From the NCBI RefSeq assembly GCF_009914755.1, contig NC_060925.1: a stretch of DNA of 64,000 nt; one strand, 5' to 3'. The notes beneath the pieces were generated by a model, which was not told where the DNA came from, searched no databases, and worked only from the letters and a program-made list of their open reading frames with translations. Positions 23,126-31,539 of this stretch are shown piece by piece (the first letter of the stretch is position 1; every line of letters starts with the position of its first letter). Made by a program: the position numbers and the translations under genes. The stretch comes from the human T2T-CHM13v2.0 reference genome, Homo sapiens.

Positions 23126-23825
23126 TTCCACTGTCTCTCAGTTACATTTGTAACTAGATTCTGGTGTATACCTACTGTTCATCTAATGCCCTTTCGACAC
23201 CAACACAAATTAACTATGATGTTTAATTCTGATAAAAGGTGCTTCGAAAAAAAGTGGGAATGGAATCACATTATATGTACCGTCTCCCAAATCGCCTGTA
23301 CATACTGTATGTTCACTAATGGTCCCTAGAGTACACTTTAGTATTTTATTTCTAGTCAATGAGTTAAGTCAGGAACATTGAGAACCTGCTATTAACTAAC
23401 TAAGTGTCCTGGGCACTGATAACATAGGAGAAATAAAGATACAATTCAGCCCTCAAGGATTCAAATTATTTGGTCTATTGATTAGTAAACAATTATAATA
23501 CTATGTGATAATTGTTGTCTATCTTGGCCTTATTACAAGATCACAAACATTTTGGAAACAAGAATGCCATCTATTTCTTTCTAGTCAAATGCCCGAGGTA
23601 GTGTTGGGCAGATAGTAGATACTGAATAAGCACACCTTACTAGTCATTTCCATTCAATTTTTTAAAATCATTTATGGGAGACTGATTTGAGTAATAATAA
23701 AACTCTGGTTTCCTGCACAGCCAGCTCTACATGAATTACTCTTTCTCTATTGCCATTTGCCTGTCTTGATGAATTGGCTCTGTCTAGGCAGTGGACAAGG
23801 TGAACCCCTTGGGCGGTTACAAATT

Positions 23826-23843
23826 TGGGGGCTTGTCTGGCAT
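23826..23843 (+). other. Retroviral primer-binding site, tRNA-Pro type
   Basis: TGGGGGCTTGTCTGGCAT matches TGGGGGCTCGTCCGGGAT at 15/18 and sits 4 nt after the U5 end. Confidence 0.85.
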
Positions 23844-26800
23844 TGCCTTTGTGGCTACCTACTCGTGGTTCAGTGGCCCCCCTCCAGCAATGGATCCAGA
23901 AGCCTGCCCAAGCGGCCACCCAGTTCTCTTGGACTGGGGGCTGACTCTGGTACTCTCTCTACTGGTGGGGTGCTGCCAACCCAGTGTGCATGGATTTAAT
24001 TGCAATGGAGAAATAGCCCCGGGGAGACGTCCCTTAACTGTAACCCTATCACAGGGTGTCTGTCTGTAGCCCCATTGCAGGGCAGGGTGTCTGGATTGGT
24101 GAGTATCCTAGGTGCTGCCAACGCCTCCTTTCTCCCAACTGGTTCTGTAGCCCTATGGTGAGGTGTCTGTAGCCCCATTGCAGGGTGTCTGTTCGGCTCC
24201 TGGGGGGGTCTCATTTGGCTCTTTCTAACTAGTAGGAAGAGTCCAGGTTTGGGAGACTTCTCCTGAATCAGGAAGATTTCAAGGAGGTTTCTCAGAAGGA
24301 GAATAGGAGGATAGTTTGGAAGGGATACTCCCGGAGTTCTTGGTTAGGGATCTGATTGGGAACGCCTTCTGTCCTCTCGTCTTTGTGTGCGTTTGTATAT
24401 GTGGAAGGGATCTCAGAAGAGGTTGCTGATGGAAGTCCAGCAGACCTAACTCAAAACCCTCCTTATTTGTCTGGTCACATTTGATGAGCCCTACAGAAGG
24501 CTCAACAGGCCTGTCTCGGGGTGACTATCTGCTCTTCGTCTTGCCCAGAGACCCCATTGTGAATTACCGTTCGGAGGTCATCCCTCCCCACCTGGAGTGG
24601 ATCAAAGACAACAGGGACCAAAGAGAAAAAGTTTTTGAGCTTTGCCAGGCTGATATTGGGAGCTGAACGAGGTGGCTAATGTGTGTTTTGTTATGTGTGT
24701 TTTGCTGGGATGGAAAATGTTAATTCGGTTCCCCATGCAGCCCGCTGGGCAGCATCTTGCAAATTAAGAATCTCGTCTATGTTTCCATAAAACAGTAAAG
24801 GGTGATTTTCTCTTGTAAAGTGGCTTGAACCCCACAGCTATAGCACAAGCAAGCAGGGTCATCAAAAGCCACTCCATTCTTCTGGAAACTGCAGAGAAAG
24901 GGAACCCGGAAATCTGGTATGCCGGCACAGAGGGTATGAAATTCTTACCGGACCGGTTTGTGGTCTCTCTCTCTCTTTCTCAGTAAATAGTAAACTGTTT
25001 GCCTCCTCTGCAAGGGTTTGATGAATGGAAAAAAGGATTTGTGAGACTAGTCTTAGGCTGTAGCAAATCTGGTGTAGTTTTGTGCTAAGAATTTGTCTTT
25101 CTGTGTTCTGTAGTGGATAGATGGGTGTCACAGGATAGAACGTGGGTTTAGGACCCCTATAAGCCTGCTTTTCAAGCCGGCTTGGCAGGCTGGTCAGTTA
25201 CAAACTTTGCTACAGGTCCCTGAAGCCAATACTGTATGAAATTTCTCTGTCTTGTTTTGTGTCCTGAAGAGCTTAACTTTGTGACCATGTGGAGATACTT
25301 TCTCTTGGTTTCCACCATCTAGAAGACAGGAATTTGGGGATTTTTAGGTTAGCCCTAAGAATTTTCTTGAGCAGTTAAAAGCCTTTGCAAGCTTGAAACT
25401 GGCTTCTGTAGGCTCCTTCTGGGAAGCACAATAGAAACTGCTCAATACTGTGTAACTCAGTAGCTAAGGTTTTGCCTCTTGACAGTGGGGGGTCTGGGTT
25501 CTATTCCTGGCTTCTGGAATGATTCCCTTCTGGTTTTTTATTTATGTAACTTTGCCATTTATTGAGGTTCCCGCGTCCCCCCGCTCCCATGAATAGCTTC
25601 TGATTTCCTGTCTTGAATTTTCCTTTCTCTAAACTACCCTGGGGGAGATTCTACATCTTGTAGAAAAAAAAACTGCTTACCATCTCTTTGAGACACCTGT
25701 GTGTCCATGGTTATAAACTTAGTTAAAACTTAATTTCAGGTGGGAAGTTACCTGTGGTAGAATTCAAAAGCCAAAAATATTGGCCGCTTGGCGTGGCTAA
25801 AGTTGGGTATAAAATTTTTAAGGGTTTTTTTTTTTTTTTAAAGAGCGCTATGGTTAAAAGTCAGCTTAATTAAAAGTGGATAAACAAGCTGTAGGTATAT
25901 TTAAAAGGCCTTTATGTTTCTCTCTTCTTGGATCTTGTTTTTCTGGAAAAAGATTATTTTTCTGGAAAAAGGTCTTTTTTTCCTTCTCAGTCAACTGAAT
26001 TATTTTCCTCCACTTTTTTGTTTTGCCTATCTTAATGTACACATGAGAGGCCCTGAGATAGCTTCTGGTAGCCTGGGACTCCTTGGGAAAAACAGGAGGC
26101 ACCACAGACCCCGTTTTGGAAAAAAGCTCTGTTTTCCTCATGAAACCCCAAGAATTAAAAGCAGACAGATCCCTCTCAAAATCCAAGGCTCTATTCTGTT
26201 TTGCATTGTGTTATCTGACGGTTTTGAGTTTTAGGGGCATCAGAAATTACTTCTCATTCTGAGAGAGCTTTGGTGTATAACAACTAGGTAGGAAATATAC
26301 TTTAGGAGTTGGCTAATAGTAGTTACGGAGGCATACTTGGCTCTTCGCACACTTGGATCAGAGAAGCATGCTTTGGCCACCTGGAAGACATGGAAACACC
26401 CCCCCGCCCCCCAACAGAGAGATGAGAATCCCATGGGGGATGGTCTAATTACAAATGGACTGATTGGCTTTGGGTTGCGTTGCAGTGAAATGCATAGTTG
26501 GTAAAAGCACTGCACTGTCTTCTCTCGAAGTATTTCCGTCCTCTTGGGATCCAGGATCCAGTGTAAAGCGGCACCCTTAATTTTAAGAATCCGTCTTTGC
26601 CTTCAGCTGCTTGTTTGGCCCTAGAAACACAAGCTTTCCTAGCCCTGTTCCTCCAGGGGCTCCACCCTGAAGCCAGTAATCCAATTAAGAAACTGGCAAA
26701 CAAAAAATCTTACAGGTGCTGAATCTTCTCTCTGGTGTGTGATGTTTATATATAAAAGAGCTCTGATTAATTGCCTTAGAAAAATGAGCGCTTACATCAC

Positions 26801-29379
26801 ATATTTTGTCAGAAAAATAGAAATTTTAATGCCTTTTTATTCACATGACTTTAGTAATCTTTTGGAAATAAAGACAGTTTTAAAGATTTTTGGTAAAATA
26901 AAATGTCATGAAAATACAGACATTTGGTCTAAATTAAGATCAGATATCAGATTTGCTAAATGCTTTAAAGTCAAACTGTTCCTTTGACTTTTGAAAATCA
27001 TTTGATTTACCTACTTTGGAGCATTAGGCTATAGATAAGGCCTGGGGACACATGGACAGCCATGCCCCTAGTTATGCTGAAAACAGTCAGGCCTTATCTT
27101 CACTTCTGTCTGGTGTCCTAGGCTCCATCCCTAGTATTAACTCACTTACTTATCCGGTTTTTCACTAAAATGAAAGTTGCTAAGAATTAACACTGTAACA
27201 TGAAATTGAGATTACTGGAGAAACAGTTTTACATACAAGGTGTGTAAGGAAGGTGTTTTTTGGTAAAAGATTGTAAGAAGGCATAGGAATATGGCTTTTG
27301 TTAAAGGGAATGTAATTTTGTCTAGTTCAGAGGCTTTTAAAGATTGTCTTACCCTAAAACAGTAACGGAACAAAACTGAAGGTTTAAGCAAAGTGAAAAA
27401 GGTTTGTAAAGGGTGAATCTAAAAAAAATTCTGTGGGTATAAACCAGTTGGCTAAGAGCTGAAAGAAATTATTTAGCTTTTTTCTGTAGGTTAAAACATT
27501 AAAATCGTACTGATGTGGGGCCAGAATCTGGGCCCCTGTGTCCAAAATCTGGGCCCCTGTGTCCAAATCACAGGGTTTTCTTAGAAAACTGATCTGCTGT
27601 TTGATGGAAAATTGTAAAGGGTTCTATAAAGTTTATGAAAATCTTACCTTATGGTCAAAGTAATTAAAACTGGATATATAAAACTTTATTTAAAAAACTA
27701 GCTTTAGCATTAAAGATGCACATGAAATTTGGTTTTCTCTTTTGAAGATGATTTTTATGTAATGTTAAAAGATAATGAAAGGGTTTTGTTTTTTCCTTTG
27801 GATAAATGGCAGGGGAAAAAAAGGAGGAGAGAGAGAAGAGACAGATTCAGTTGGCCTCATGCTATCTTCATTGGATCTTCTTTGGAAAGGTAAGTCATCT
27901 GTATCACAGTAAAGGTTTTTCTTTTTCTTTAAATTGTTTTGGAGTTATCATTTTGGCCAAATGAATGACTTATGGTGACCTGGGATTCTATTTTGTGATA
28001 TCCAGTGTTTTAAACCTTTGATATTTGACAGACTTTCCAAAATCAAATTATAAATTATGTCTCTTTCTAACTTAGTATTTTAGATATTAAGTCCTCTAAA
28101 GTCCAAAAATGACATTTGGCTTATTTGGTACAAAAATCATACAGGAAGCATTGTCAAATATAAAATGGTGTTCAGCTTTCTTTGGTCTATATTTGTGTAA
28201 ATGTGTTATTGGTATATGTTCCAAAATTATGTAAAACTGCTATAATTCTAATATGACTTAGGATATGTTATCAGTAATAATTATAATTATTATGTTAAAT
28301 GACTGTGTGCCACAGAGGTAAATGTCTTTGTCAATTGTGCCTTTAACAGTGGCTGCCCTAAAATGTTTTTGTCATCCACAGACAACTGTTGTCTCACTTT
28401 GGTCCTCTTTAAAAGATGATTTTATAATTGGCTAGAAAATTTAACAGGTGCTCTTAAATGCAGGTTTCTGATTAATAACTCTGGGAGACTGTGACATTAG
28501 AATAGAAAAAACCTTTCAAATAGAAGAGGGAATGGCGTTTGGTTTTCTTTGGGACTGTATTTGTATAAATATGTTATTGGTATGTGTTCCAAAATTATGG
28601 GAAATTTCTATAATGTTATAATTTAGTGTACATTATTAATTATTATAATGGTTATGTAAAATTGTTGTATGCCACAGAAGTAACCAAAATTCCTAGTCAA
28701 TTGTAGCTTTAATAGTGGGTGTAGGCTTTTGCCATCCACAGACATTTTGTCTTGCTTTGGTCCTTTTCAAAAGGCAGTTTATATGTCAGATATAGGACTC
28801 TGAGTGCAGGTCTCAGATAACTTTAAAAATTGTGCTATTGGAATGGAGGAAAAAAAAACAAACTTCTAGGACTCTCATGGAGAGCTAATGTGTTAAACAT
28901 TGCTAAACCTTTTGTTTTCAGAGTCGAGAGAACTTATTTCTTTAGAGCTATTTGCAGCTTCTAACAAGTGAGTAAAATATACTCCTGTGAACAAAATTTA
29001 GAGCATATTTGTTCCTCTCTACCTGATTTCTCCAGAATTTGGAAACTATTTGTGAATATTCTCAATTTATGGCAGTATAGTTAATTGCATAAGTGCAGTA
29101 AGAATCTGTTTTCTTTTGTAACAGAACACAATTGGAGAAATTGGTTATTTTACCAAGGCTTTGACTGGAATGGCATGCTTCCTTTAAAGAATCAAAGTTC
29201 ACTTATAGAGCCAATTAAAGCCCATTGGGGAATCTGGCCTCATACCTTGTCCACACAGAGTGTCTGTGCAAGGTTCCTGACCTGTGGTAAGTAAAGAATG
29301 TCACTTTTTAACAGGCCCAGGAACTCCAAGTTATCTTGGGACTTCAAGAGGAAAGGAATTTTCAAATACCAACTCATAG

Positions 29380-29696
<317 letters not shown>

Positions 29697-30328
29697 TGGG
29701 CTTGGCTTTTAAAAAGTCTTAGCTGAGATCCTTCATGGAACAGAGTTCTATCAGAGCCAATGAAAAAAGCCTAAGTGAAAAATAATTATTCTTGCTGCAC
29801 TTTATGCAAATAATCAGGCCAAGTACAGTAAGACTAAAGTTTATTTTGTAAACAAATCGGTTCTATCATGGTTTGTTTTGAATAAAAATGGGGACTGGAG
29901 AGAGAAAAATTATGCTTCAAAAGAAAAACTATAGTATACAGTTGTTAGCTGGTCTTGAGGTTTTCTTGTGCAGTTTAGACTACACACTAAATTATTTGTG
30001 GGTTAGAAGTCCCCAGACTAACGCTTTCAAATCTTTACTTTTAAAATTGGGAATTGTACTCCTCAAACTAGGACTCATTATTTACCTTATAGCAGGCTGT
30101 TCACTTAAACACTGTAGTAAAACTATAGATGAGAGTACTAATGTGTTTGCCATGCAACTCTTGGAAACTCAACCAGGCCTGCATGAGTTGCTCAGACAGT
30201 TGCAAAGCAATTCCACTCTTCTCACCTTGGGGTTCACTCCCATTCCCATTACCTCCCCTGTCAGCAGGAAGAAGCCAGAGCTATCAACGGCCTTCTCCCA
30301 TCTTCATAGCCTACCCAAAGGGAAGGAT

Positions 30329-30906
30329 TGAAACCATCTTTGCAAAATTATGATTGAGACAGTGAAAGAGATCTAACTGAACGGATTGCATCTTGCTTCT
30401 AACCTCAAAGCTGTCCTTGTTCATTCCTGGGCATAAGCTGAACTAACTTTGGGAGAAACTTAGTTTATAGTTTACACAAAGACGGTAACAACCCTTTCCC
30501 AAAGCAGACCTCCTTCTTGCCTGGAGACTAGATTGCCTTTGTAGGACTAACATTAACCACAAGATTTGAAATCAGGTTTAGGAGTCATGCAGCTGGAGGA
30601 TACAAGATTCTGACTTGCCCTAAACCGCTCCTAAGATCGGTGCTCGAGAGATTTTACAGACCCTGCACTTGATGGATCAGCTGGCACCACCCAGATCAGT
30701 AAACTGGCTCATCTGATCTTGTGGCCCCACCCAGGAAGTGACTCAGCACAGGAAGACAGCTTCTACTCCCTATGATTTCACCCCTGACCAATCAGCACTC
30801 CTGGCTCACTGGCTTCCGCCAACCCACCAAGTTATCCTTAAAAACTGTGCTCCCCAATTGCTTGGGGAGACTGATTTGAGTAATAATAAAACTCCAGTCT
30901 CCTGCA
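30329..30906 (+). mobile_element. LTR8-like 3' LTR (U3-R only, no U5)
   Basis: Preceded by polypurine tract AAAGGGAAGGA (30317-30327); TATA-like TTAAAAA at 30838-30844; AATAAA at 30885-30890; ends in CA at 30905-30906. Confidence 0.85.
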
Positions 30907-30951
30907 ATAAATAAATAAATTAATTAAATAAAAATCATTTATGCTGTGCCT

Positions 30952-31256
30952 GGCCAGGTCTGGTGGCTCACGCCTGTAATCCCAGCACTTTGGGAGGCTG
31001 AGGCGGGTGGATCACTTGAGGTCAGGAGTTGGAGACCAGCCTGGGCAAGATGGTGAAACCCCGTCTCTACTCAAAATACAAAAATTAGCAGGGCCTTGTG
31101 GCGCACGCCTGTAATCCCAGCTACTCTGGAGGCTGAAGCAGGAGAATCGCTTGAACGCCGGAGGCGGAGGTTGCAGTGAGCCGAGCCAGATCGCGCCACT
31201 GCACTCCAGCCTGGGGGACAGAGTGTGACTCTCTCAAAAACAAACAACAACAAAAA
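30952..31256 (+). mobile_element. AluS immediately 3' of the ERV retrocopy
   Basis: Full dimer; TSD AAAATCATTTATGCTGTGCCT (30931-30951) versus AAAATCACTTATGGCGTGCCT (31253-31273). Confidence 0.92.
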
Positions 31257-31539
31257 TCACTTATGGCGTGCCTGCTCCCTGGAAAGCACTGCCAGATATG
31301 TATTTGCTATTGCAGTGTCTATACGCAGTCACATGAAGATTTGGGCTAAAAGACCCACTACCTTAAAAGTTTCACATTCTTTCTGGCAAATTGGATTTTT
31401 CTTTTTCTTTCCTTCCTTCCTTCCTTCCTTCTTTTTTTCTTTTAATTGGCAACTCAGATTTTTCGAAGTGTTTTTGCTATCTCACTGCTGGAAAGCCTGG
31501 TTCTGCCTTTCCTAAAATCTCGTGTGCAGGTTCGCACTC

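What the first reader, a model, noticed from the sequence alone, without database searches (positions are those of the whole stretch)
23664..30943. Full-length ERV genomic RNA retroposed by LINE-1 (processed pseudogene of an LTR8/HUERS-P1-like element)
Seen: the element starts mid-LTR (GGAGACTGATTTGAGTAATAATAAAACTC, 23677) with no U3. It runs through U5, a tRNA-Pro PBS, 6.5 kb of internal sequence, a PPT and U3. It ends 16 nt after AATAAA at the second copy of the same ~41-nt segment (30866-30906), with no U5. A degenerate A tail follows. The whole is flanked by a perfect 13-bp TSD (AAAATCATTTATG) preceded by TTTT. Known: integrase-made proviruses have two complete TG..CA LTRs and 4-6 bp TSDs. 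An R-U5...U3-R-polyA layout with a long TSD at TT/AAAA marks L1 ORF2p target-primed reverse transcription, well described for HERV-W. Inference: a non-coding ERV1 family also hitch-hiked on L1, and this copy records the LTR8 start site (about 22 nt after TTAAAAA) and poly(A) site, giving an R region of about 41 nt. Repeat maskers would probably label it as two LTR fragments plus internal sequence. I do not know whether this has been reported for this family.
Basis: partly seen in the sequence, partly recalled or inferred. Interest (0 to 1): 0.82.

Follow-up and report, generated by a model that had tools for sequence, protein, structure and literature searches.

The report
L1-retroposed copy of HUERS-P1/LTR8 retroviral RNA
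This 7.2-kb stretch is a DNA copy of a full-length, non-coding endogenous-retrovirus RNA that was pasted into the genome by the LINE-1 machinery rather than by a retroviral integrase, and many other members of the same family turn out to have been spread the same way.

Summary
Window 23677-30906 reads R-U5-PBS(Pro)-6.5 kb internal-PPT-U3-R. A 24-nt A-rich tail follows, and an exact 13-bp target-site duplication (TSD) flanks the whole at a TTTTTT/AAAA site. There is no 5' U3 and no 3' U5.

In 28 of 29 other genomic copies of this LTR, the window's U5 follows directly on its U3-R. The two ends are therefore complementary halves of one about 682-nt LTR. A published RepeatMasker-annotated locus anchors the family as HUERS-P1/LTR8.

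The interpretation (LINE-1 retroposition of genomic RNA) is supported and proves family-wide:
- 13 of 36 informative leader-bearing copies start at R with no U3.
- All 6 of these whose 3' ends I fetched end in R, an A-rich tail and a 10-16-bp TSD.
- Two pattern scans gave 24 further independent R-poly(A) ends, several of them 5'-truncated.
- Solo LTRs of the family instead carry 4-bp TSDs (6 of 8 perfect).

Six loci consist of R alone (about 40 nt) plus an A tail, three with 15-16-bp TSDs.

The internal region has no Pfam domain. The held literature calls HERV-W the sole HERV group mobilised by L1, and I found no report for LTR8. Verdict: a real feature, a new member of a known kind, of moderately high interest.

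The parts
23658..23663 (+). T run (TTTTTT) immediately 5' of the TSD. With the AAAA that opens the TSD it forms the L1 endonuclease consensus (TTTT/AA on the bottom strand).
   Evidence: read directly
23664..23676 (+). 5' target-site duplication AAAATCATTTATG
   Evidence: exact copy of 30931-30943
23677..23717 (+). 5' R, the transcription start end of the RNA. The start is ambiguous by 1 nt, because G23676 could belong to the TSD or to R. Contains AATAAA at 23696-23701.
   Evidence: 5' ends of 19 other copies cluster here
23718..23821 (+). U5 (104 nt), ending ...GTTACA
   Evidence: follows U3-R in 28 of 29 other LTR copies; LTR termini TG..CA
23826..23843 (+). Primer-binding site complementary to tRNA-Pro, decayed (15 of 18)
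   Evidence: PMC10602909 lists HUERS-P1-int among PBS-Pro ERVs
23822..30328 (+). Internal region (HUERS-P1-int type), with no recognisable gag, pro, pol or env
   Evidence: no Pfam family in the sense frames; THOLE.s primer of PMC6862598 matches 24867-24886 exactly; leader and 3' end have 104 and 129 first-look candidates in the genome
27813..27889 (+). Piece of the internal region used as an exon by alternative CATSPERE transcripts (AG|exon|GTAAGT)
   Evidence: hub annotation; splice sites read
29402..29700 (-). Secondary antisense Alu insertion inside the element
   Evidence: absent from the homologous position in L061, L062, L067 and L068
30317..30327 (+). Polypurine tract AAAGGGAAGGA
   Evidence: solo-LTR homology begins at 30327-30329
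30329..30864 (+). U3 (536 nt), starting TG, with the TATA-like TTAAAAA at 30838-30844
30865..30906 (+). 3' R (42 nt), with AATAAA at 30885-30890 and the cleavage site after ...CCTGCA
   Evidence: the same end recurs with A tails in more than 30 other loci
30907..30930 (+). Degenerate poly(A) tail of (AATA)n type
   Evidence: the same tail type is seen in L030 and L112
30931..30943 (+). 3' target-site duplication AAAATCATTTATG
30952..31252 (+). Neighbouring Alu with an A-rich tail, inserted at the same target site
   Evidence: D1
31253..31274 (+). 3' TSD of that Alu. It matches 30931-30952 at 19 of 22 positions, and its first 13 nt are the third copy of the ERV TSD (1 mismatch).
   Evidence: (D8)

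Best explanation
Window 23677-30930 is a processed pseudogene of an endogenous retrovirus. A full-length, unspliced, polyadenylated HUERS-P1/LTR8 genomic RNA ran from the start site at the U3/R border of a source 5' LTR to the poly(A) site at the R/U5 border of its 3' LTR. LINE-1 ORF2p copied this RNA by target-primed reverse transcription at a TTTT/AA nick in what is now the CATSPERE locus. That mechanism yields R-U5-PBS-internal-PPT-U3-R-A(n) between 13-bp target-site duplications.

Shown: the anatomy, the halves-of-one-LTR relation, the family identity, and the recurrence of both breakpoints with A tails and long TSDs at many other loci. Also shown is the contrast with the 4-bp TSDs of integrase-made copies of the same family.

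Inferred: that L1 was the enzyme (from the target motif, TSD length, A tail and 5' truncations), and an age of tens of millions of years (from 8-24% divergence between copies).

The copy has no promoter at its 5' end but keeps a complete U3-R at its 3' end. The family is non-coding, so both its proviral spread and its L1 spread depended on proteins supplied in trans.
For: 1. Structure of the window copy: a 42-nt R at both ends, no 5' U3, no 3' U5, PBS-Pro, PPT, an A-rich tail, an exact 13-bp TSD, and TTTTTT/AAAA at the target.

2. Halves of one LTR: in 28 of 29 other U3-R loci the window's U5 follows R directly. The one exception (L030) also ends in R plus an A-rich tail. The composite is 682 nt. 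Family solo LTRs measure 670-694 nt, and PMC6862598 gives 691 nt for LTR8.

3. Family identity: THOLE.s, which lies in HUERS-P1-int, matches 24867-24886 exactly. L073 at C1:109.84 Mb carries the exact site of the paper's LTR8 primer. It is hit by the window's leader at 82% and its 3' internal end at 86%.

4. 5' ends: 39 non-self leader-bearing places were scored.
- 13 start within about 4 nt of GGGAGACTG, with unrelated upstream DNA.
- 23 have U3.
- 3 are uninformative.
- By my reading, 7 of the 13, and the window copy as well, have T(T)AAAA about 10-17 nt upstream.

5. Paired ends: for all 6 R-start copies whose 3' ends could be located, the element ends in R plus an A-rich tail plus a TSD. 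The TSDs are 11, 12-14 and 14 nt exact, 12 nt with 1 mismatch, 10 nt exact plus an A run, and 11 of 14 nt degenerate.

6. 3' ends genome-wide:
- Two R-anchor-plus-A8 patterns gave 17 and 17 places, 8 of them shared. The reversed-pattern controls gave 0.
- After inspecting all 26, 24 are independent true R-poly(A) ends. One was a false positive and one a segmental duplicate.
- Several are 5'-truncated with TSDs, such as L031 (10 nt) and L043 (11-16 nt).

7. Control: solo LTRs of the same family have TG..CA ends and 4-bp TSDs. These are perfect in 6 of 8 resolved cases and 3 of 4 in one more.

8. Coding capacity: no Pfam domain in the sense frames.
Against: - The tail is degenerate ((AATA)n-like), not a pure A run.
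- The first base of R is ambiguous with the last base of the TSD.
- No orthologous empty site could be examined, and no CAGE or 3'-end data were available.
- The element was not aligned to Dfam or Repbase LTR8 and HUERS-P1 consensus sequences. The family name rests on one published RepeatMasker-annotated locus and its primers.
- Family-wide numbers come from the best-scoring 40 of 104 and 40 of 129 first-look candidates and from exact-anchor patterns. They are samples or lower bounds, not a census.
- One pattern hit (L120) was a false positive, an A-rich insert inside R.
- L032, L041 and L048 showed no TSD of 7 nt or more.
- Only 6 of the 13 R-start copies had their 3' ends checked.
Confidence: 0.94

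Rival explanations
1. An ordinary integrase-made provirus that later lost exactly the U3 of its 5' LTR and exactly the U5 of its 3' LTR by deletion.
For: Old proviruses are often damaged, and the family is 8-24% diverged between copies.
Against: - Two independent deletions would have to end at the two borders of the 42-nt R.
- They would also have to leave an A-rich tail and an exact 13-bp duplication at a TT/AAAA site.
- The same pair of breakpoints recurs in 6 of 6 paired copies elsewhere.
- Integrase-made copies of this family have 4-bp TSDs.
Confidence: 0.01
2. A cDNA of the retroviral RNA made by some other reverse transcriptase (a retroviral RT, or capture during double-strand-break repair) and inserted without LINE-1.
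For: The RNA-colinear layout by itself says only that an RNA was copied. No tool here can identify the enzyme.
Against: - Retroviral reverse transcription regenerates full LTRs and removes the poly(A).
- Break-repair capture does not give 10-16-bp TSDs beginning with A runs after T runs. That signature was seen in the window and in most paired copies.
- Frequent 5' truncation with retained A tails is the L1 signature.
Confidence: 0.03
3. This concerns only the R-only copies. They are not retrocopies of a short RNA. They are 'solo R' products of recombination between the two 42-nt R repeats of full-length retrocopies, or products of an L1 reverse-transcriptase switch from the 3' R to the 5' R of a genomic RNA.
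For: All these routes predict the same end product: R plus an A tail between long TSDs. Promoter-proximal poly(A) sites are generally used poorly (established knowledge from exogenous retroviruses, recalled).
Against: - A 42-nt repeat is a very short substrate for homologous recombination.
- R-only copies are 6 of the 24 pattern-defined loci. Those are the copies with the best-preserved R and tails, whereas a decay product should be enriched among old copies. This argument is weak.
- L1 ORF2p lacks RNase H, so internal strand transfer is not expected to be common (recalled).
Confidence: 0.45

Closest known systems
HERV-W (LTR17/HERV17) processed pseudogenes made by LINE-1 (Pavlicek et al. 2002; Grandi et al. 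2016, PMC5016936)
   Same: The layout and insertion signature match those described in PMC5016936 (passages).
- The 5' LTR is reduced to R-U5 and the 3' LTR to U3-R.
- There is a poly(A) tail, long TSDs at an L1-type target, and frequent 5' truncation.
- The pseudogenes coexist with true proviruses and solo LTRs of the same family.
   Different: - It is a different, unrelated ERV1 lineage (HUERSP supergroup, PBS-Pro).
- The internal region has no detectable coding domain.
- R is only 42 nt and carries the AATAAA inside it.
- About one third of sampled internal-bearing copies are R-start (13 of 36 informative), rather than a majority.
- R-only retrocopies occur.
- Grandi and Tramontano 2017 (PMC5537654, abstract) call HERV-W the sole HERV group mobilised by L1.
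Retrotransposed HERV-K(HML-2) rec mRNA loci at 2q32.1 and 5q15 (Schmitt et al. 2015, PMC4351823)
   Same: [quoted passage not shown]
   Different: Those are two isolated copies of a spliced subgenomic mRNA of a betaretrovirus-like group. Here an unspliced full-length RNA was copied, and the phenomenon is family-wide.
Processed pseudogenes of cellular mRNAs, and SVA or Alu trans-mobilisation by L1
   Same: The same machinery and insertion hallmarks. The template needs only a poly(A) tail.
   Different: The template is a retroviral genomic RNA. The copy therefore carries a complete promoter (U3-R) at its 3' end, not its 5' end.
Integrase-made HUERS-P1/LTR8 proviruses and solo LTR8
   Same: The same sequence family (87-92% identity in the LTR).
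   Different: Those have complete TG..CA LTRs of 670-694 nt and 4-bp TSDs. The window copy has neither.

Membership tests
LINE-1-mediated processed pseudogene (retrocopy) | Colinear with a mature RNA: begins at the transcription start and ends at the poly(A) site | tested here: met
   The window copy begins at the R start and ends at the R end. The same two positions recur in 19 other 5' ends and more than 30 other 3' ends.
LINE-1-mediated processed pseudogene (retrocopy) | A-rich tail at the 3' end | tested here: met
   30907-30930 is A-rich but degenerate. Pure A runs of 8-25 nt occur at the same position in other copies.
LINE-1-mediated processed pseudogene (retrocopy) | Target-site duplication of roughly 7-20 bp | tested here: met
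   13 bp, exact. The other copies have 10-16 bp.
LINE-1-mediated processed pseudogene (retrocopy) | Insertion at the L1 endonuclease motif (TT/AAAA on the sense strand) | tested here: met
   TTTTTT|AAAATC at 23658-23669. A similar motif lies upstream of 7 of the 13 other R-start copies (my reading).
LINE-1-mediated processed pseudogene (retrocopy) | An empty, unduplicated target site in species that diverged before the insertion | not testable with these tools
   No other primate genome is held.
HUERS-P1 / LTR8 (ERV1, HUERSP supergroup) | Primer-binding site for tRNA-Pro next to the 5' LTR | tested here: met
   23826-23843 matches at 15 of 18 (the 18-mer is recalled). The first 9 nt match TGGGGGCTC, as given in PMC10602909, at 8 of 9.
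HUERS-P1 / LTR8 (ERV1, HUERSP supergroup) | Sequence homology to elements that RepeatMasker annotates as LTR8 and HUERS-P1-int | tested here: met
   The THOLE.s primer of PMC6862598 matches exactly. The THOLE-locus LTR (L073) holds the paper's LTR8 primer site and is homologous to the window element. The LTR length of 682 nt compares with 691 nt in the paper.
HUERS-P1 / LTR8 (ERV1, HUERSP supergroup) | Alignment to the Dfam or Repbase consensus, including the subfamily (LTR8 versus LTR8A or LTR8B) | not testable with these tools
   No repeat library is on hand.
Integrase-made provirus | Two complete LTRs (TG..CA, U3-R-U5) and a 4-6-bp TSD | tested here: not met
   The 5' end lacks U3, the 3' end lacks U5, and the TSD is 13 bp. 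Family solo LTRs do show 4-bp TSDs.

The most novel reading that the evidence does not exclude
LTR8 is a second human ERV lineage for which LINE-1 was a major amplifier. In addition, its LTRs produced capped, polyadenylated 'R-only' RNAs of about 42 nt, running from the start site to the poly(A) site within one LTR. L1 retroposed these, which would make them among the smallest RNA polymerase II retrocopies known. They would also be a genomic fossil record of promoter-proximal polyadenylation at LTRs that lack a downstream splice donor.
Probability: 0.35. Interest if true: 0.78.

Novelty: new member of a known kind. Interest (0 to 1): 0.66.

Why it matters
1. The held HERV literature treats HERV-W as the only HERV group systematically mobilised by L1 (PMC5537654, abstract). 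A second, unrelated and non-coding family with the same behaviour shows this is not a peculiarity of HERV-W. It more likely reflects high germ-line expression coinciding with L1 activity.

2. The retrocopies act as natural 5' and 3' RACE. They fix the LTR8 start site 27-30 nt after the first T of TTAAAAA and the poly(A) site 16 nt after AATAAA. This gives U3 536 nt, R 42 nt and U5 104 nt for an LTR family with about 2500 first-look matches that is used as a promoter or enhancer (for example THOLE, PMC6862598).

3. HERV catalogues that did not separate pseudogenes from proviruses (Vargiu et al. 2016, PMC4724089, passages) will count promoterless retrocopies as HUERS-P1 proviruses. Expression from such loci, as with HERV-W, must come from neighbouring promoters.

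4. LTR-LTR divergence dating is invalid for these copies.

5. The R-only units, if they come from short RNAs, bear on how retroviral LTRs with the poly(A) signal inside R avoid premature polyadenylation.

Tried and rejected
- Spliced-RNA retrocopy: in L037, window-equivalent 25369 is joined directly to 30024. The junction is not GT..AG, so I treat it as an internal deletion variant. It is not evidence of splicing.
- The reverse complement of the LTR8.THOLE.as primer does not match the window at up to 3 mismatches. It does match L073 exactly, so it served to anchor the published locus instead.
- Coding remnants: 12 sense open stretches of 60 aa or more gave no Pfam family above threshold, only two weak chance hits at E 0.09-0.18. 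Three whole sense frames read through with X gave none at E up to 0.1.
I therefore worked with small targeted fetches. As a result the 5' ends of the seven 'long' poly(A)-ended copies (L037, L042, L060, L061, L062, L067, L068) were never seen. The 3' ends of 7 of the 13 R-start copies were not checked either.
- Order of the Alu and ERV insertions at the shared site: the TSD copies differ too little to decide (0 of 13 versus 1 of 13 mismatches). There is a weak lean towards the Alu being first.
- No paper linking LTR8 or HUERS-P1 to processed pseudogenes turned up in searches. Supplements were not opened.


Full report
**1. The observation**

The two ends of the claimed element were read directly.
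- The 5' side reads ...CAATTTTTT AAAATCATTTATG GGAGACTGATTTGAGTAATAATAAAACTC...
- The 3' side reads ...TTGCTTG GGGAGACTGATTTGAGTAATAATAAAACTCCAGTCTCCTGCA, then a 24-nt A-rich tail, then AAAATCATTTATG CTGTGCC...

A repeat search over 23400-31400 gave these results:
- The only long direct repeat shared by the two ends is 42 nt (23676-23717 versus 30865-30906, 93% identical).
- The 13-mer AAAATCATTTATG lies exactly at 23664-23676 and 30931-30943.
- A third copy with one mismatch lies at 31253-31265.

With up to one mismatch the 13-mer has 4 matches in the window against 0.42 expected, and 0 of 100 shuffles reach 4.

The coordinates in the finding are therefore right:
- AATAAA is at 30885-30890, and the repeat ends 16 nt later.
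- Six T's precede the 5' duplication.
- The PBS at 23826-23843 matches the recalled 18-nt tRNA-Pro PBS at 15 of 18 positions.

**2. The two ends are halves of one LTR**

The window's genome is searchable. The U3-R piece (30500-30906) has 2507 first-look candidates, of which 40 were scored at 87-92% identity.

In 28 of the 29 non-self loci fetched, the window's 5' R-U5 piece continues directly from the end of U3-R for about 146 nt. A complete family LTR is therefore the window's 3' piece plus the window's 5' piece, overlapping in R.

Homology of solo LTRs begins at window 30327-30329. This gives:
- U3 at 30329-30864 (536 nt, starting TG),
- R of 42 nt,
- U5 at 23718-23821 (104 nt, ending CA),
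- 682 nt in all.

A purine tract, AAAGGGAAGGA, lies just upstream at 30317-30327. Family solo LTRs measure 670-694 nt with TG..CA ends. The window element thus lacks U3 at its 5' end and U5 at its 3' end, precisely.

**3. Which family**

No repeat library was available, so I anchored the name to print.

- Its THOLE.s primer, which lies in HUERS-P1-int, matches the window exactly at 24867-24886.
- Locus L073 (C1:109.84 Mb) contains the exact site of its LTR8 antisense primer inside R.
- That locus is hit by the window's leader at 82% and by its 3' internal end at 86%.

PMC10602909 (passages) lists HUERS-P1-int among the ERVs with PBS-Pro. The identification as HUERS-P1/LTR8 is supported. The subfamily could not be determined.

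**4. The internal region**

Twelve sense-strand open stretches of 60 aa or more gave no Pfam family above threshold. The three sense frames read through with X at stops gave none at E up to 0.1. The 6.5-kb interior is therefore non-coding as far as Pfam can see.

It holds a secondary antisense Alu at about 29402-29700. That Alu is absent at the homologous place in four other copies.

Leader-to-3'-internal-end distances in other copies, taken from the coordinates, run from about 4.4 to 12.6 kb. Most lie between 5 and 7.5 kb. The window's 6.5 kb is therefore full length.

**5. Is it a one-off? 3' ends**

The pattern 'R anchor, 8-22 nt, A8' found 65 matches at 17 distinct places in the genome. 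The reversed-pattern control found 0.

A second anchor gave 53 matches at 17 places, with control 0. Eight of these were shared with the first list.

I inspected all 26 places.
- One is a false positive (L120, an A-rich insert inside R, with U5 following).
- Two are one segmental duplicate (L116 and L117).
- That leaves 24 independent loci where the LTR stops at the end of R and an A run follows.

The first list of 17 breaks down as follows:
- 7 run more than 1.3 kb upstream into internal sequence (L037, L042, L060, L061, L062, L067, L068).
- 5 have homology starting inside or just upstream of U3. L031 has a 10-nt TSD, and L043 has 11 nt exact or 16 nt with one mismatch. L032, L048 and L064 have no TSD found or were not assessed.
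- 5 are R only.

In the second list, L114 is truncated to the last 47 nt or so of U3, and L121 is R only. Five places (L115, L116/L117, L118, L119, L122) have U3 for at least the 117 nt fetched.

None of the 8 poly(A)-ended copies found by other routes (the window, L030 and the six paired copies of section 6) is caught by either pattern. Their anchors or tails are mutated. The patterns therefore catch a minority, and the true number is probably several-fold higher. This is an inference, not a count.

**6. 5' ends**

The PBS-plus-leader piece (23822-24250) has 104 first-look candidates. Forty were scored, 39 of them non-self.

I fetched 290 nt upstream of the PBS for 37 of them. The other two (in L011 and L014) were already held and have U3.

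Results:
- 13 begin within about 4 nt of GGGAGACTG with unrelated DNA upstream: L071, L075, L078, L079, L080, L084, L089, L095, L097, L098, L102, L103, L105.
- 23 have U3. In two of these (L083, L101) an Alu sits at the TATA box.
- 3 are uninformative (L076, L087, L096).

So 13 of 36 informative copies, plus the window's own, start at R. By my reading, seven of the 13 have T(T)AAAA 10-17 nt upstream, as does the window copy.

**7. Paired ends**

Six of the 13 had a 3' internal end among the 40 scored places. I fetched 250-360 nt around the expected R end of each. All six end in R plus an A-rich tail plus a direct repeat of the 5' flank.

| Copy | TSD | Length | Note |
|---|---|---|---|
| L071 | ATCTCAACAAC | 11 | |
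| L098 | AAAAATCTAAAC(AG) | 12-14 | |
| L078 | AAGAACATCATATG | 14 | |
| L084 | AACT[A/C]TGAATCA | 12, 1 mismatch | (AATA)n tail, like the window's |
| L089 | ATAATAAAGG plus an A run | 10+ | |
| L079 | degenerate | 11 of 14 | |

The remaining 7 were not paired.

**8. Control**

Eight solo LTRs in hand had both ends resolved.
- Six have perfect 4-bp duplications: AAAC, CCAT, CATC, TAGG, GTGA, ATAA.
- One has 3 of 4, and one has none.

Four further LTRs follow the PPT and are 3' LTRs of proviruses. The family therefore shows two cleanly different insertion signatures:
- integrase: complete LTR, 4 bp;
- L1: R-to-R, A tail, 10-16 bp, T/A target, 5' truncation.

**9. R-only copies**

Six loci (L041, L047, L063, L065, L066, L121) consist of about 40 nt of R, starting at the same position as the full-length copies, followed by an A tail.
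- Three have clean TSDs of 15-16 nt: L066 exact, L047 and L065 with one mismatch each.
- In L063 and L121 an Alu hides the 3' flank.
- L041 has no TSD.

Random 5' truncation would not hit the U3/R border repeatedly.

My favoured explanation, at about 0.4, is retroposition of short RNAs that start and are polyadenylated within one LTR, for example a solo LTR with no splice donor downstream. The rivals are recombination between the two R's of a full-length retrocopy, or a reverse-transcriptase switch from the 3' R to the 5' R. They predict the same product and could not be separated here.

**10. The neighbouring Alu**

A + strand Alu (about 30952-31252) follows the 3' TSD after 8-9 nt. Its own TSD is 30931-30952 versus 31253-31274, matching at 19 of 22. 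It contains the ERV's 13-mer.

Two L1-driven insertions therefore used the same TTTTTT/AAAA nick site. The order is not settled, with a weak lean towards the Alu being first.

**11. Mechanism**

A source provirus was transcribed from the U3/R border. That border lies 27-30 nt after the first T of TTAAAAA, counted on the sequences. The RNA was polyadenylated 16 nt after the AATAAA inside the 3' R.

L1 ORF2p nicked TTTT/AA, primed on the A tail, and copied the whole RNA. Second-strand cleavage 13 nt downstream gave the TSD.

The anatomy and its recurrence are shown. The enzyme is inferred from the signature.

The age can only be put at tens of millions of years, from the 8-24% divergence between copies. 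PMC6862598 notes that one family member is confined to Hominoidea (passages).

**12. What is known**

The layout is that of HERV-W processed pseudogenes (PMC5016936, passages).
- Two HML-2 rec mRNA retrocopies are described (PMC4351823, passages).
- Vargiu et al. [quoted passage not shown]
- Kojima's Repbase review lists HUERS-P1 with LTR8, LTR8A and LTR8B, without comment on L1 (PMC5753468, passages).

Seven full-text searches found no paper that connects LTR8 or HUERS-P1 with processed pseudogenes. Pavlicek et al. 2002 is not held and may mention other families. I cannot exclude that, nor notes in Repbase or Dfam entries, nor supplements, which I did not open.

**13. Verdict**

Novelty: a new member of a known kind, namely a second HERV family with systematic L1-made processed pseudogenes. 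There is an unexplained extra, the R-only copies.

Interest is 0.66. The finding corrects a repeated statement in the HERV literature. It gives base-exact U3/R/U5 borders for a widely used LTR family. The mechanism itself is familiar.

Noticed in passing
window 30931-31274: A + strand Alu sits 8-9 nt after the ERV's 3' TSD. The Alu's own 21-22-nt TSD (19 of 22 identical) contains the ERV's 13-mer, so the same TTTTTT/AAAA site took two L1-driven insertions. An Alu also directly follows the A tail in L030, L063, L113 and L121.
   Followed up: partly
L041, L047, L063, L065, L066, L121 (own-genome loci): These are R-only units: about 40 nt of LTR8 R, starting at the transcription start, plus an A tail. 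Three have 15-16-nt TSDs. They may be retrocopies of RNAs of about 42 nt, or 'solo R' products.
   Followed up: partly
window 27813-27889: An exon of alternative CATSPERE transcripts (hub annotation) lies inside the sense-oriented ERV interior. It has AG before it and GTAAGT after it, so this is an exonised ERV piece.
   Followed up: partly
window 30020-31219: The RefSeq 'enhancer' feature covers the retrocopy's intact 3' U3-R and the Alu. This lies about 690 nt upstream of the first listed exon of the selected CATSPERE transcript (31594). A retrocopy carries its promoter at the 3' end.
   Followed up: no
L037 (C1:168.79 Mb): A poly(A)-ended copy in which window-equivalent 25369 is joined to 30024 without GT..AG. 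This is an internal 4.6-kb deletion variant, not a canonical splice product.
   Followed up: partly
L011 (C1:90.93 Mb) with L004: The LTR in L011 is preceded by PPT-type internal sequence and followed by PBS and leader. This suggests a tandem int-LTR-int-LTR arrangement of two HUERS-P1 elements sharing a middle LTR.
   Followed up: no
L083 and L101: In two independent proviral 5' LTRs an Alu has inserted at the same spot, the TTAAAAA box of U3. That is an L1-endonuclease-type site inside the LTR. PMC6862598 also remarks on Alu insertions in LTR8.
   Followed up: no
L032, L048, L064: In three poly(A)-ended copies, homology to the window's U3 begins at nearly the same place (window-equivalent 30655-30679). 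This could be coincident truncation, a subfamily with a different 5' U3, or an internal start site.
   Followed up: no
window 28181-28920: An internal direct repeat of about 368 nt within the ERV interior (repeat families D3, D10 and D18, 85-94% identical).
   Followed up: no
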